From assembly GCA_021613535.1 (NCBI GenBank), contig CP075495.1, forward strand, positions 4,960,001-5,024,000: DNA of 64,000 nucleotides, written 5' to 3'. Each line of letters starts with the position of its first letter. Within the stretch, counting starts at the first letter, position 1. The position numbers and the translations under genes are program-made. The notes below the pieces were generated by a model. That model ran no database searches and was not told the origin of the DNA. It saw only the letters and a list, made by a program, of their open reading frames with translations. Shown piece after piece: positions 1,736-23,388 of the stretch. Source of the stretch: Adineta vaga (lineage: Eukaryota > Animalia > Rotifera).

Positions 1736-3623
1736 CTATTCAAAAACAAAAAGTCTTCTATTACATATGTGTTTTGTTCGATCTTTTTGTAAAAAAATAT
1801 TCTTTTGTTTTGTACAGATCAAATATCAAACATACCTTTAATTTGTTAGAATCAGCTTTCTAATTACTATTTTTATCGACTTACTAATAGAAAATCATGT
1901 TTTCATTTAAGACACAAAAGTGCATACACTTATTTTGTACTTACTAAAATAGATATTAACATTATGTCACCTCCGACGCAAGGTTATGTTCATACGATAT
2001 GTATGTGCCCTGAAGATATATACTTTAGCATAGAATTTACTATTATCTGAAACCTGGGTTGAATAAGTAAACATAGAGAAAAGTACGAAGTCTATATATG
2101 AATATATCTGATACAGATATGAACTTAAATTTTAAAAATAAAAATATCAAGGCCATTTTATTTCACATGATTTTTATTAATAAAATATTATATCAACAAT
2201 ACAGAAAGACATCTGTTGTTGACAGGTAAACAAAGAATGTCTTAGTAAGGTATATTGAATTAAATAAGTATTTAACTGAAACAAACTTGAAAAATCAATT
2301 CCTTTGAGATTTTTTGATTAATCGAGAAGCAAAGTCGATAAATATTTTTAAGTCATATTTCGTGTATCATTAGCAAATAAAAACTATATTACGTGCTTCA
2401 GAAAAGAATAGTATGCTCTTGAAAATCATAGCTGCATCTATTCAATATATATTGATCTTTTTTTTTCCTTTTTAACCTTTGACATAAGTTTAGACATTTT
2501 CTATATCTTAATTCTCAAAAGCTAATTTCGCAGACATGTTTCACAAGTACTTCTCATTCAGTCCATCGAGATTTGACAATTCCGCTATGATTCTAAATTA
2601 CATTTACATGTATATAATCTTCTCTTCATTCATATCCATTCCCATGTAACAAACAGGTCAATATAGATTGATTGATTGATTATACCACCTCTCCAAAACT
2701 GTGCTACTTTTAATTGACTAATACATCTGTTCTATCATTTATATTAGAAAATTATTCAATCATTCTTTCATATTCGACTTTCCTCAATCGAGGTTCTTTT
2801 CTTCGATATAGATTTGCTAATTACTTTTCAACCAACGATCAAGAGAGATGAAATATTGCATCGAACCGAAAATGAAACAATGACACAAGAGAGAAAACCT
2901 TTTTCTTCGTCACAAAAGACCGTAATTTCTTCGACAAAGATTGAAAAGAAATTGATTTGAAATAAAAATCTTTTACCATTATTTATTGATCGCACTCCGT
3001 ATGCAGTTTTATCTATCACGTCTTGTAATCAGTCAAAAGGCACGTTCTTTCAAGGCATATATAAAACAAAAAAGAAAATCTGTCTATGTACCTTTACAAA
3101 AGAATTTTCTCTCTTACATATATATATATATAGAAAGATGATTGATAGTTGGAATACAAAAAAGTTATTTATAATATATTCTTAGTTTGGAATTTATAAC
3201 AAGTATGTTTCTTCGATTCAATATCGTCTTATGTTTCTTTCCTTTTTTTTTGCTTGCAAATAAAAACTATGATGTTATTTTCCATACATAACTGTCGCTT
3301 GAAAGTGCGATGTACACGCGAGTAAAACAGAACAAAGATTGATGGTAAAGAAGAAGCAGGAAATTCAAAAATTAAACACGAGATTCTCTCAAGAAAAAGA
3401 AAAACAAACTGAATGAAGTGATTCTATACAATGAACAAAAAGATCGACTGTTCTTTATATGCTTAGACATGATGGCACGGGGTTGTTTACCAATTATCAT
3501 TACGCAAATGAATAGTCATTCTGACGAAATAGAGACATAAAACCGACCAGCGGTTTTTTGTTGATAATTTTAATTTGAAGAATTACGTCCGTTCAGATCT
3601 ATCATCATCTTCATCATCTGAAT

Positions 3624-18309: not shown

Positions 18310-21300
18310 TCAAACATCGGTAGCATTTTTCTTCTTTTTGGACTAAATGAAATCCTCTCATTATTAACTAGAAGAAGTTATTCAAATATTTTACCTTCTT
18401 TGAAGAATGACCATTTTTATAGCCATGTTCTTCAGTATTATTTTCTCCATTATTTGCATTCATCATTGGTGTTGTTTGATGATCTCTGAATTAAGAAAAA
18501 ACCGTCATTAGTCAAGATTAATTGCGATGATAAACAAAATCAAAGGGAAAATATGTCCATACAATACAATCAAAATGTTCACCGACATGATTATATTCAA
18601 GAATTCGAGAGAGAGAGAAAATTCAAGATGATTTTTTTAAAATCGAACTTTGACTTCGATCATCAACAAATATATAAACATATCATGCAACCATAAAACA
18701 TCACATATAACATGAGTCATAGTTCAAAAGAATGAATGAGAAAAGAACCTACTTTCGGATGTTTTTGGTGATACTATAAAAAGGGTTTGGTTTACTTTTA
18801 GTTAGAAAAGATAGGATGAGACAAAAAGTTTCCTAGTACTTACGAATCAGTTGTTTTACTCTTTCCACCAAGTCGATAGACACGTAATATAACACAGATG
18901 GCAACAAAGGCCACAGCAAATAAGATAATACCTAAGATGATACCAATAATAACCCATTTACTTGGTTGATTTCTTCGATAATTTTTTATTAAAGGACTTG
19001 GTGTTGCTGTGATACTACCTATAAAAACAAACTATTAATAGAACTGTTTTTCGACATCACTATATTTATACCACTTTTAGCTTTCAATGTTGTAATACGA
19101 AGTTTTTGTTCGGCTGCACCAGCTTCATTAAATAATTTTACTAGAACTATATAACTTGATGCTGGTTTTAAATCATGTATTTCATATTCGGAAACAGATG
19201 CATCAATTGGTACTGGTGTACTAAATGGTCCATCAGGTTCAAAACTATTTTCATTTTTAGCCTAAGGAAAAAAGGAAACTCAATTAAAATATTTCATAGT
19301 TTGAAAATTGAATATTTACTTTAGCGTATAACACTTCAGCACGAATAATTGGTGCACCTCCATCAGATTCAATGTTCCATTTAATTAAACAACTACGATC
19401 ATTCAAACATGTATCATTTTTATTTTCATCGGTTTTTGTGATTTTAAAATCTGGAATTTGTCTATCTAATGTTCGAAAAGTAGTAGGACTACTTTGTTGA
19501 CCAGTACCAGCACGAGATTTAGCATAGATTGTAAAACGATAAGTAGTACTTGGTTTAATCTTTTCGATTTTTAATACTTGAGATGCTTGTCGAGGATCAT
19601 CAGAATTTGGTTGTGCTAAATGATACACAAATATATAAACATTTTTCGCTCCTTTCAATGAAAATGTCAAGATTTTGAACATGCTTTACCTGGAAAAGTT
19701 AATGTTTGTGCTTGATCATCTGATTTATCAGCTATGCACTATATTTGACAACATATTCCATCAGTGGTAGACCACCAGCTTCTGGTGTTTGAAGAACAAT
19801 ATCGACGCCATTTGTCAATGGTTTTACTTCAGAGACGCGAACCTTTTTCGGTGGTTCAGCACGTTGAAGTGTAAATGAATGTCGTCCAACACGTGGATTC
19901 AGTGCTCGACATTCGAAACTAATTCCAAAATCACGTTCATTAGGTGTATACTAAACAAAAAATTTCAAAGATTTTCAACTCAAATTTTAAAAAAGAAAGG
20001 AAGAATCTACCGAAAGAACACTTTCAAATAGTGCTGATCCAAGTTGTTTGGTGGTTATATCATTCACACCATTATCTACATCGACAGCTAGTATTCGTCC
20101 TTCAGGATCTTGAACAGTTCGTACCATTTTAATCCATTGTATATGTGGTGGTGGATAGGATTCGAATTGACAACGCATAACAACTCGATAATTGGGAATT
20201 GTTGAAACAACTTGAATATTTGGTCCAACAAAAACCGGTTGAACTAAAATCGAATCGAATGATAATTAATAAATAAAATTCTAGATTAACTTACATTGAA
20301 TATGAAAACTAGCAATTGAATAAGAAGTATCAGCAAGATTCTTTGCAACACATGTATAATTTCCAAAATGTTCACGACGAACAGGTTCAAAACGTAATTC
20401 AATTAATTTGTTTGATTCTAATCGTGTTTTCTCAATATAAATTCCATTTGTTGATTGTATCGGTGTATTATTTAGATATTGCCATTCTAATGAAAGACTT
20501 TCTGATGAACCACGTTCAACACGACATTCAAATGAAACACGTTGAGGATGTTGTTCATCAAGATTGATTTCAATAGGAGCCATCGGTGATAAACGTGGTG
20601 GAACTAAACAGGCATATACCAAATTTTACAATTGTAAAGATTCGATCACTAAATGATCGGACTGTTCGTACTTACCAATAACATTTAAATTATATTCAGC
20701 TCGAAGACCCCTATTATCATATTCGTTATAAGCATGACATGAATATTTTCCATTATCGGTTTCATCAACATAATTAATCGTTAATTGATTACCTCGTACA
20801 ACAAATTTTGCTACTTCACTTGCACCGACAGGTGAATCCTAAATTTAAATAAATATGTATGTTTATTTCTTTTTCCTTGTGGAAAAAAACATCAAACAAA
20901 AGAAACTGTCTAGTCACACATCGGGGGGCGGTACAATGGCACACATATATATACACACACACACACACACGTGCATTGAGTCAGTCAGAGTACACACAAA
21001 ATATCTACTATGAGCATCATGCTGATAGGATAACCTTTTGTTTTGGTTGATTGATTTATGTCCGCCCCCTTTGCTGTTTTTTCTTTCACTCACACGCTGT
21101 TTTCCGTCTGTTGTAAAAATATTCGATACGAAATTATACAATGCCATAGTTAGATTTACTGGAATCAGTTCTATGTCGTGTCTCTGAATGTAGAGGTGAG
21201 AGATAGAGAGAGAAAGTCAATGACTTGAAAATAATATGATTAGTTGAAAAAATAATCAGAAACTGATACTGATTTCTACAGATTAAATCAAACAAAAAGA

Positions 21301-23388
21301 AAACGTCTCTTTGAATGTTACCGAATTTGCTAAAACATTGATCTGAATGGAAAAAAATAATAAAAGGGAAGACGGTTATAAAAACAAAATAATAATAAAA
21401 GTATAATAACTTTTAAATTCACTACAAAAATAAAATAAAATAATAGTAAATAAAGAAACAGACATGCATACATCACGATCACTCAAATAAAGAACTATCA
21501 TGCTGATAGATAGATAGATAGATAGATAATGTATCTCTTTAAATTTTTTTTTCTAGAAAATCTTACTTTGACAGGTCTCAATTCATCTGCCTATAGATCA
21601 AGGATGAGATTATGTTTTAGTTGTATTGATAGTTGAGAAGAAGAATATTTTTAATGAAAATAAACCTACCGATCCATAATACCATGCAAATTTTGGTGGT
21701 GGTAAACCAGTTGCATCACAAACTAATGTTGCTGTCTTTTTTTCAATAGCACATGGTGTAGCACAAGTAATACGAGGTTGAGTGACAGATTCTAAGCAAT
21801 TGAAATTAAAATGTAAATAAAATTTATCAAAATTTTAATGCTATTCTTTTACTTGAAATCACAACAGTTATTGGAAAATCTCTTGATTCGCCTGTTTCAA
21901 GTACATCAGCACGACACCAGAATGTTTCATTATCAGACATTTCTACTCGATTAATTTTTAGGCCATCATGAACACGTGTATAGTATGGTCCATCTAAAAT
22001 ACAGCAATAGAGGGGAAAAAAAGAGATTTTACACAATTATAATCCAATAGTTTCTTTTTTCAAACACTATACCAATTCGAGTTTTATCTTGTCCTTTAAA
22101 CCAAGACACTTCGGCTGCTGGACTTGCTTGTACATGGCATTTAATCGTAACTGCTTCTCCAAGAGCTGCATATTGTATAGAATCACCATGAAATGTAATT
22201 GGAACTGAAAGCAAAGAAAAAAAAAGAAGATGAATGATCTCAATAATTTTTTTGTCATATTCAATCAACCTTTAATTGTCAGTTGGAAAGATTTTCGACT
22301 TTGTCGACCACTACTATCCGTACCCAAACATTCCCATGTACCTATTCAAAATAAAGATGAAGACATTGATGTTATCAAGAATGAAGATAGAAGTCTTTGA
22401 TGCAGACGATTGCCGGAACGATTTATGTTGCAACTTCCGGTCTTTGAACTATTGACAATGTCCGAATGAAATTGAAGTGACGGTCAAACAAATCGTATGA
22501 GCAGAGTAATTTTCTAAGATTCTTTGCAATTTAAAGAGAAAAGATCGGAACGTGATGATTTCATTCATTTAATCATAAAAAGTGCGGAAATAGCTTAGAT
22601 GAATTGTATCCTATATGATCTCCTTATCGTCGCGACCAATGTCTTTATAATAGTTCATTCTTATAATTACTACAATTAAAGTCGAATGCAATATATACCT
22701 TGATCATCTGTTGTTAAATTACGAATACGTAATCGAATTTCATTTGTTTGTCTTTCAATAGTTACACTAAAACGAGAAAGAAAATGTTTTTTCTTGGGTA
22801 AATAATCTTCTCCTTCTTCTAAAAACATTGCTCATCTTTTATTACCGATCATGTTCATTTTCAGGTACATCTCCATGTTGTGGTGATCTCCATCCAATCA
22901 CACGACTACTGGATTGTCCAGTACATGAAGCAACAAATGATCGATATTGATCTCTTGTCAATGATGTTTCAGCTGGTTTAATAATCAATTCACTTTGAAT
23001 TTGTGCTAGAACTATTGAAATAAAAATAATAAAATAGAAGTCTTCAATTGTTCATTATCGATCCTTTTCTTCTCTATTGTTCGTTTAATCAATGGTCAGA
23101 TACCAAAATGAAAAACGAGACCAATCATATGGATGAAAGGTCAAAGAAGAAAAAAAACAGGTCTATAAAGATATATCCTAATGACAAAATGATCGAACTG
23201 CCATCAGGTGTCGTCGTATTTCAAGAGAATAATGAGGATTCATCAATCTGACTATTATTATTTCAACTGTGCCCATATGTCCATAAGTCAACATTAAAGA
23301 GTTTGTCTATGATTTATGAGTGAATATAGAAAGCACGTCTAAACTTACATAGCGTTGTTACTGCGAACACCAACAATATGGAAAACAT
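18310..23388 (-). CDS. Fas2: Fasciclin-2/NCAM-like cell adhesion molecule (signal peptide, 5 Ig, 2 FN3, TM, cytoplasmic tail ending TDV); carries a 1-nt deficit near 19735
   Basis: ATG 23388 MFSILLVFAVTTL; Ig C/W motifs (DDQGTWEC, DNGKYSC, HFGNYTC); FN3 motifs (IKPSTTYRFTI, LKPASSYIV); TM WVIIGIILGIILFAVAFVAICVIL; exons spliced by hand. Confidence 0.88.

What the first reader, a model, noticed from the sequence alone, without database searches (positions are those of the whole stretch)
21160..21590. Array of frame-preserving micro-exons inside Ig3 of the Fas2/NCAM-like gene
Seen: the phase-0 intron splitting Ig3 (AWYYGS|DSPVG) is about 830 nt instead of about 60. It contains three AG-exon-GTAA units, all multiples of 3 and stop-free: 21567-21590 (ADELRPVK, 24 nt), 21322-21342 (INVLANS, 21 nt) and 21160-21183 (RHDIELIP, 24 nt). 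Known: the vertebrate NCAM VASE micro-exon in Ig4 and the LAR-RPTP mini-exons tune binding. Inference: a combinatorial or mutually exclusive micro-exon code diversifying one loop of an adhesion molecule.
Basis: partly seen in the sequence, partly recalled or inferred. Interest (0 to 1): 0.75.

Follow-up and report, generated by a model that had tools for sequence, protein, structure and literature searches.

The report
Three-cassette switch in rotifer NCAM Ig3
A bdelloid rotifer's NCAM/Fasciclin-2 adhesion gene carries three conserved in-frame optional exons in one Ig3 loop (24 nt, spliced in RNA; 21 nt, present only in relatives' gene models; and a likely 90-nt exon not yet seen in RNA), which would let cells tune adhesion much as vertebrate PTPRD mini-exons do.

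Summary
The gene is the Adineta vaga NCAM/Fas2-like gene I4U23_007340. Its 831-nt phase-0 intron holds three units, in the same order in related bdelloid loci from two paralogous lineages.
- A (24 nt) is spliced in or skipped in RNA contigs: included in 2 of 5 informative runs, one study.
- B (21 nt) appears in A. ricciae and R. sordida gene models, alone or with A. I saw no RNA junction.
- C is not a 24-nt micro-exon. Its conserved form is 90 nt (21094-21183), stop-free, with an invariant N-x-T and a GTGAGT donor. No transcript or protein with C was found.
Conserved GCATG (RBFOX-type) motifs follow A and C. AlphaFold places the junction in the Ig3 C-C' turn. The evidence favours independent cassettes over mutual exclusion. 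It works like PTPRD meA3/meA6 and NCAM VASE, but is a different domain and probably arose independently. The effect on binding is untested.

The parts
18310..23388 (-). NCAM/Fas2-like gene (5 Ig, 2 FN3, transmembrane helix, tail); public model I4U23_007340 of Adineta vaga
   Evidence: Ig4 exon 100% identical to P0001; domains; start and stop read from the sequence against P0001
21670..21791 (-). Constitutive exon ending just after the Ig3 C strand; phase-0 donor
   Evidence: RNA joints
21567..21590 (-). Cassette micro-exon A, 24 nt, ADELRPVK
   Evidence: RNA joints in X12 and X14; present in 11 of 11 sequences covering it; 46 A-only protein records plus 1 A+B
21463..21503 (-). Two conserved GCATG motifs (21499-21503; TGCATG 21463-21468) downstream of A, RBFOX-type
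   Evidence: two copies between A and B in 11 of 11 sequences
21322..21342 (-). Cassette micro-exon B, 21 nt, INVLANS
   Evidence: 12 of 12 sequences; in gene models P0037, P0039, P0040 (A. ricciae) and P0085, P0086 (R. sordida paralog); no RNA joint in 8 runs
21239..21244 (-). ACTAAT, a strong branch-point or STAR-type motif upstream of C
   Evidence: 10 of 12 sequences, 34-82 nt before the C acceptor
21094..21183 (-).
   Evidence: 90 nt and GTGAGT donor in 11 of 12, 96 nt in L006; frame 0 stop-free in 11 of 11 while frames 1 and 2 have stops in 11 of 11; no RNA or protein record
20923..21069 (-). Intron after C: G-rich arm 21062-21069 and C-rich arm 20923-20931 predicted to pair, enclosing a GCATG (21018-21022)
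   Evidence: arms present in 5 of 5 clade-a sequences and 0 of 5 clade-b sequences tested; duplex -18 to -22 kcal/mol; no real covariation
20676..20838 (-). Constitutive exon carrying the rest of Ig3 (C' to G strands)

Best explanation
This intron of a bdelloid NCAM/Fas2-like gene holds a conserved set of three phase-0 in-frame optional exons: A (24 nt) is spliced in or skipped in RNA, B (21 nt) is likely used, C (90 nt) is predicted, and they likely insert independently into the C-C' turn of Ig3, where they would alter how the protein binds. Mechanism, step by step. (1) Shown: the default mRNA skips all three, and a minority includes A. (2) Inferred: inclusion is promoted by an RBFOX-type protein binding the conserved GCAUG motifs downstream of A and of C, probably in neurons or muscle. 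(3) Inferred from one gene model (A+B) and from normal spacer sizes: the cassettes combine freely, giving up to 8 loop variants per gene in each of two paralogs. (4) Predicted by AlphaFold: A's RP takes over the short C' strand formed by SP in the skipped form, and the displaced residues plus B loop out. C would add 30 residues with an N-glycan site. (5) Inferred by analogy with NCAM, where Ig3 makes trans contacts: the inserts would change adhesion strength or partner choice.
For: RNA contigs join both borders of A at the predicted AG/GT sites in X12 and X14, with depth 10.7 against 21.3 skipped, and 14.9 against 49.2. Intronless-sized contigs of another bdelloid give both forms: P0054 with A and P0055 without, 830-838 aa on about 3.2-kb contigs. 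Order, phase and length are kept in 11 other loci while spacer introns vary: A-B 74-224 nt, B-C 61-193 nt. Even the deviant L006 keeps multiples of 3 (A 15 nt, C 96 nt). Against the other paralog, exons are 58-71% identical (A, B, C25-90) while the A-B, B-C and C-D spacers are 29-45%. GCATG occurs 2-3 times per full-length intron against 0.1-0.7 expected. The skipped and A+B models differ as described. RBFOX motifs downstream of alternative micro-exons favour inclusion (PMC4317164, passages). Ig3 mediates NCAM trans contacts (PMC2644493 and PMC3160849, passages).
Against: No RNA joint for B or C in 8 runs, of which only 5 bridge the intron; low-depth unspliced contigs cross their borders. A's inclusion comes from one study, with 24-letter sides. 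C is in 0 of 120 protein records covering the loop, and the C profile search found only an unspliced read-through ORF. Coding constraint on C is weak (pN/pS 0.58-0.72 against 0.15-0.21 for the next exon) and noisy for A and B (0.00-1.54). A+B rests on one gene model whose evidence I could not see. No binding or tissue data exist.
Confidence: 0.62

Rival explanations
1. Only A and B are used exons. C is a conserved splicing-regulatory stretch or a decaying exon that is rarely or never included.
For: No RNA joint or protein for C. pN/pS near 0.6-0.7. A 27-nt block across its donor is invariant in clade a, including silent sites, which points to RNA-level constraint.
Against: Exact 90-nt length, an AG acceptor with branch motif, a GTGAGT donor and one open frame in 11 of 11, across two paralogs about 35% apart. 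Invariant N10, T12, M13, F23. The two variants that run X14 shows inside C are silent or V to I, a residue that relatives carry.
Confidence: 0.14
2. The three units are mutually exclusive, Dscam-like, with one chosen through competing RNA pairing.
For: The start of C resembles A in clade a (16 of 24 bases in L001, 14 of 24 in L002 and L008), as duplicated exons would. A conserved G-rich/C-rich stem follows C.
Against: The form with none is the main one. A+B is annotated together (P0039). Spacers of 61-224 nt match or exceed ordinary introns of 45-72 nt, so there is no steric block. Only one arm pair exists, and it is missing in clade b. The A-C likeness is weak in the window (9 of 24) and in clade b (10-13 of 24).
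Confidence: 0.08
3. In A. vaga C is used as the reader's 24-nt micro-exon through a lineage-specific donor at 21159, instead of or beside the 90-nt form.
For: The window has GTAAAT there, and 5 other loci have GTGAAT.
Against: There is no GT in 6 of 12. Bases 25-90 are better conserved than bases 1-24 (74-82% against 58-62% in clade a). The downstream GTGAGT is the better consensus match.
Confidence: 0.08
4. The inserts are tolerated loop extensions with no role in binding. The exons persist for splicing-regulatory reasons.
For: The inserted region is low-confidence in the model (residues 245-257, pLDDT under 50). A varies in clade b (pN/pS 1.5).
Against: A and B peptides are nearly fixed across Adineta, Rotaria and Didymodactylos. 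All inserts keep the frame, so there is no nonsense-decay role.
Confidence: 0.08

Closest known systems
PTPRD (LAR-RPTP) mini-exons meA3 and meA6
   Same: Tandem in-frame micro-exons inserted in any combination into one loop of one Ig domain of a neural adhesion receptor; eight variants together with meB (PMC13080001, passages).
   Different: Different protein family; Ig2 rather than Ig3; 3- and 6-residue inserts against 8, 7 and 30 here. The binding effects are proven for PTPRD and untested here.
Vertebrate NCAM1 VASE exon
   Same: Same protein family; an optional in-frame micro-exon inside an Ig loop, predicted to change the loop structure (PMC2116347, abstract).
   Different: VASE is 30 nt, lies in Ig4 and was the only alternative exon found at that site. 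Here there are three, in Ig3. The two acanthocephalan homologs and the other NCAM/Fas2 records I aligned have the short loop, so an independent origin is likely.
Drosophila Dscam1 mutually exclusive exon arrays
   Same: Splicing-generated variation in Ig domains of an adhesion molecule; a possible exon duplication (A and C).
   Different: Dscam swaps one of many half-domain exons (recalled). Here short inserts are added to an intact domain and the no-insert form is the main one.
RBFOX-regulated and eMIC/SRRM4-regulated neural micro-exons
   Same: Downstream TGCATG/GCATG motifs; CUAAY and a UCUC-rich tract before C (PMC4317164 and PMC8797185, passages).
   Different: UGC next to the acceptor is mostly absent; tissue specificity is unknown.

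Membership tests
NCAM/Fasciclin-2 family | 5 Ig + 2 FN3 domains followed by a transmembrane helix | tested here: met
   Pfam Ig_3 with 5 stretches and fn3 with 2; AlphaFold helix 754-783
NCAM/Fasciclin-2 family | Closest full-length non-rotifer relatives are NCAM or Fas2 | tested here: met
   Of the 8 non-rotifer single-stretch hits looked up, 2 are acanthocephalan hypothetical proteins, 4 are named NCAM-like or fasciclin-2, 2 are unnamed. NCAM Ig1-3 (1qz1) has the highest target-normalised TM-score listed, 0.71, though only rank 39 by E-value.
NCAM/Fasciclin-2 family | Orthology in a tree that includes L1, Dscam and Robo outgroups; GPI-anchored isoform | not tested
   The tree held only bdelloids and two acanthocephalans
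Alternatively spliced micro-exon | Length of at most 27-30 nt (A and B) | tested here: met
   24 and 21 nt
Alternatively spliced micro-exon | Length of at most 27-30 nt (C) | tested here: not met
   90 nt in 11 of 12, 96 nt in 1
Alternatively spliced micro-exon | Both inclusion and skipping seen in RNA (A) | tested here: met
   runs X12 and X14
Alternatively spliced micro-exon | Both inclusion and skipping seen in RNA (B, C) | tested here: inconclusive
   No joints in 8 contig sets, which drop rare forms; B is in gene models only
PTPRD meA-type tandem mini-exon code | Several optional exons entering the same Ig loop | tested here: met
   All share one phase-0 junction in the C-C' turn
PTPRD meA-type tandem mini-exon code | Free combination of the exons | tested here: inconclusive
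   none, A, B and A+B appear in gene models; only none and A appear in RNA
PTPRD meA-type tandem mini-exon code | Inserts change ligand binding | not testable with these tools
   needs binding assays
NCAM VASE | A single 30-nt exon in Ig4 | tested here: not met
   Three exons in Ig3 against PMC2116347 abstract
Dscam-type mutually exclusive array | Exactly one of several homologous exons is always included | tested here: not met
   The skipped form dominates; A+B model exists
eMIC/SRRM4 neural micro-exon programme | UGC close to the 3' splice site | tested here: not met
   Absent from the 22 nt before A, B and C in the window and in most loci
eMIC/SRRM4 neural micro-exon programme | Neuron-specific, eMIC-dependent inclusion | not testable with these tools
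   No tissue-resolved data

The most novel reading that the evidence does not exclude
Bdelloid rotifers independently built a combinatorial adhesion code in NCAM Ig3: three freely combined cassettes give eight loop variants in each of two paralogs and label cell types in a tiny nervous system. The so far unannotated exon C acts as a rare off-switch, placing an N-glycan and a hydrophobic helix on the trans-binding domain, gated by an RBFOX site held inside a conserved RNA stem.
Probability: 0.2. Interest if true: 0.7.

Novelty: new variant of a known kind. Interest (0 to 1): 0.45.

Why it matters
It suggests that the trick vertebrates use in PTPRD and NCAM, tuning an Ig surface with tiny optional exons, arose again in a spiralian lineage, in a different NCAM domain and with three cassettes instead of one. 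It was kept through a gene duplication older than the Adineta-Rotaria split. It corrects annotation: the A. vaga model lacks all three exons, and C is missing from every protein record examined. It also gives a compact, conserved RBFOX-type target for studying regulated splicing in rotifers. The principle is not new, so interest is moderate.

Tried and rejected
- No whole genome was held, so the window's own paralog could not be read as DNA.
- Runs X5, X6 and X9 held only short, near-identical unspliced fragments and say nothing about splicing. Lack of contig cover for B or C is not evidence of absence.
- The C profile search gave 1 hit among 473 candidates, P0276, which reads from intron through C into intron and is not a spliced isoform.
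- Length differences among wasp, amphioxus and chiton isoforms lie outside Ig3.
- An amphipathic helix in C is only weakly supported: shuffle p 0.04-0.38, 2 of 11 at or below 0.05.
- A-C duplication is inconclusive.
- The consensus RNA fold after C has no covariation support: term +1.08, 2 of 39 pairs with double changes.
- Rfam: 4 matches, all far below gathering score. Pfam: nothing for C.
- Dropped loci, from 22 returned: L009 and L011 (identical to L008), L010 (partial copy of L008), L003 (already spliced, skipped form), L016 and L017 (begin inside the downstream exon), L018-L021 (no upstream part), L022 (40% identity).
- The tree is the quick version; the careful search did not finish.
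- Not in print as far as searched: 'bdelloid + microexon' 0 papers; 'rotifer + alternative splicing + fasciclin' 1 unrelated; searches listed nothing on this gene. The library lacks most subscription papers, and I read no supplements.
- Earlier findings of this scan: none.

Full report
The gene. The region lies on the minus strand in an AT-rich animal gene with short introns. The Ig4 exon is 100% identical to Adineta vaga I4U23_007340, and all named hits among the 24 found are bdelloid proteins. The A. ricciae orthologs have five Ig domains, two FN3 domains and a transmembrane helix. The two best single-stretch hits among those looked up outside bdelloids are acanthocephalan proteins, followed by proteins named NCAM-like or fasciclin-2. 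A quick tree splits the bdelloid copies into clade a (this gene), clade b (A. vaga I4U23_025955) and a more distant clade c, each holding Adineta and Rotaria.

The observation. The intron is 831 nt and phase 0, and the three strings are at the stated places. Three YAG-(3n, stop-free)-GTAA units are unusual: 21 of 2000 shuffles reach three.

RNA. Eight runs were laid as contigs. Five bridge the intron in the skipped form (X12, X14, X13, X1, X15). Two of these (X12 and X14, one study) also join both borders of A exactly, at depth 10.7 against 21.3 and 14.9 against 49.2. That suggests a quarter to a third inclusion, but contig depth is a rough measure and the sides are only 24 letters. No run shows a joint for B or C, and low-depth unspliced contigs cross their borders. 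Contigs drop rare forms, so this is not absence. Full-length ORFs of 830-838 aa on 2.5-3.2 kb contigs from another bdelloid, too short to hold introns, come with A (P0006, P0054) and without (P0055).

Protein records. Of 320 proteins held, 120 match the loop pattern: 69 have no insert, 46 have A only, 4 have B only, 1 has A+B and none has C. These records are redundant across strains. A-type peptides occur in Adineta, Rotaria and Didymodactylos and in clades a and b; none occurs in the clade c records seen. B is identical in A. ricciae (P0037, P0040; A+B in P0039, all on a contig of the same length) and is INVLTIA in the R. sordida clade-b copy. I could not see what evidence these gene models rest on.

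Related DNA. A metagenome scan gave 22 loci, 11 of them distinct copies of this intron (dropped rows are listed under Tried and rejected). Best-hit scores and flanking exon sequence place 4 with clade a and 7 with clade b; L013's best hit is ambiguous. With the window that makes 12 sequences. A is present in 11 of 11 that cover it (24 nt; 15 nt in L006) and B in 12 of 12 (21 nt), while the spacers vary two- to threefold. It is 90 nt, ending in GTGAGT, in 11 of 12, and 96 nt in L006. Frame 0 is open in 11 of 11 and the other frames are closed in 11 of 11. N10, T12, M13 and F23 are invariant, giving an N-glycosylation sequon. The GTAA after base 24 is the codon for Val9: it is GTG in five loci, ATG in five and CTA in one. 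Bases 25-90 are better conserved than bases 1-24. Against this reading, pN/pS for C is 0.58-0.72 compared with 0.15-0.21 for the next constitutive exon, and values for A and B are noisy. A profile search for C found only an unspliced read-through ORF.

Regulatory signals. Two GCATG motifs, one a full TGCATG, lie between A and B in 11 of 11 sequences. A third follows C in 10 of 12. Expected counts are 0.1-0.7 per intron. TGCATG is the RBFOX motif, enriched downstream of alternative micro-exons, where binding favours inclusion (PMC4317164, abstract and passages). ACTAAT lies 34-82 nt before C in 10 of 12. CUAAY and UCUC tracts belong to the fly eMIC code, but the UGC next to the acceptor is mostly missing here (PMC8797185, passages). 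Clade a keeps G-rich and C-rich arms that pair in every predicted fold and enclose the third GCATG. Clade b lacks them, and there is no covariation.

Structure. In the AlphaFold model of the skipped A. ricciae form, strand C (240-245) is followed by a three-residue turn and a two-residue C' strand (S249-P250); the splice junction falls in that turn. In the A+B form, A makes a short helical turn and its R240-P241 takes the C' position, while residues 245-257 (B and the displaced residues) fall below pLDDT 50; the rest of the domain is unchanged. The C isoform could not be folded because no natural sequence holds it. Acanthocephalan and other NCAM/Fas2 proteins have the short loop, so the skipped form is likely ancestral. 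Their introns were not seen, so hidden exons there are not excluded.

Mechanism and rivals. Most likely the three exons are independent cassettes under RBFOX-type control that rebuild the C-C' edge of Ig3. In NCAM, Ig3 carries the trans contacts (PMC2644493 and PMC3160849, passages); whether this loop lies in that interface I did not establish. Shown: A is alternative and all three are conserved. Inferred: use of B and C, free combination, RBFOX control and the effect on binding. The rivals are an unused C, mutual exclusion, a 24-nt C and neutral inserts.

Known systems and verdict. It works like PTPRD meA3/meA6, tandem micro-exons in one Ig2 loop (PMC13080001, passages), and like NCAM VASE, a single 30-nt exon in Ig4 (PMC2116347, abstract only). 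It is neither, and it is not a Dscam-type array (Dscam features recalled). Searches found no paper on it. It is a real, apparently undescribed new variant of a known kind; interest 0.45.

Noticed in passing
window 19735 (first FN3 exon): The window has two surplus bases that break the reading frame. The RNA contig of X15 lacks them, so this is probably an assembly slip. The public model P0001 lacks about 14 residues here.
   Followed up: yes
window 18753-18773, minus strand: A further 21-nt phase-2 optional exon in the cytoplasmic tail (about ITKNIRK). Relatives have a matching insert in some records (P0004, P0007) and not in others. Alternative last exons follow.
   Followed up: partly
window 21033-21069, minus strand: A stretch of about 35 nt after the C donor is identical in the window, L001 and L004, differs in L002 only by a G-rich insertion, and is 82% alike in L008. 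It is not an open frame in all copies, and its role is unexplained.
   Followed up: partly
L018-L021, 3 kb upstream of position 3001: A clade-b-like copy whose last 60 intron bases match L006 but whose upstream 3 kb holds no A, B, C or upstream exon: an insertion, a truncation or a misassembly.
   Followed up: partly
window 22342-22698: A second longer intron (357 nt) splitting Ig1; not checked for hidden exons.
   Followed up: no
window 21160-21183: The first 8 codons of C in A. vaga have diverged from relatives (RHDIELIP against xDELxSxP in L001, L002 and L004) while keeping their length.
   Followed up: partly
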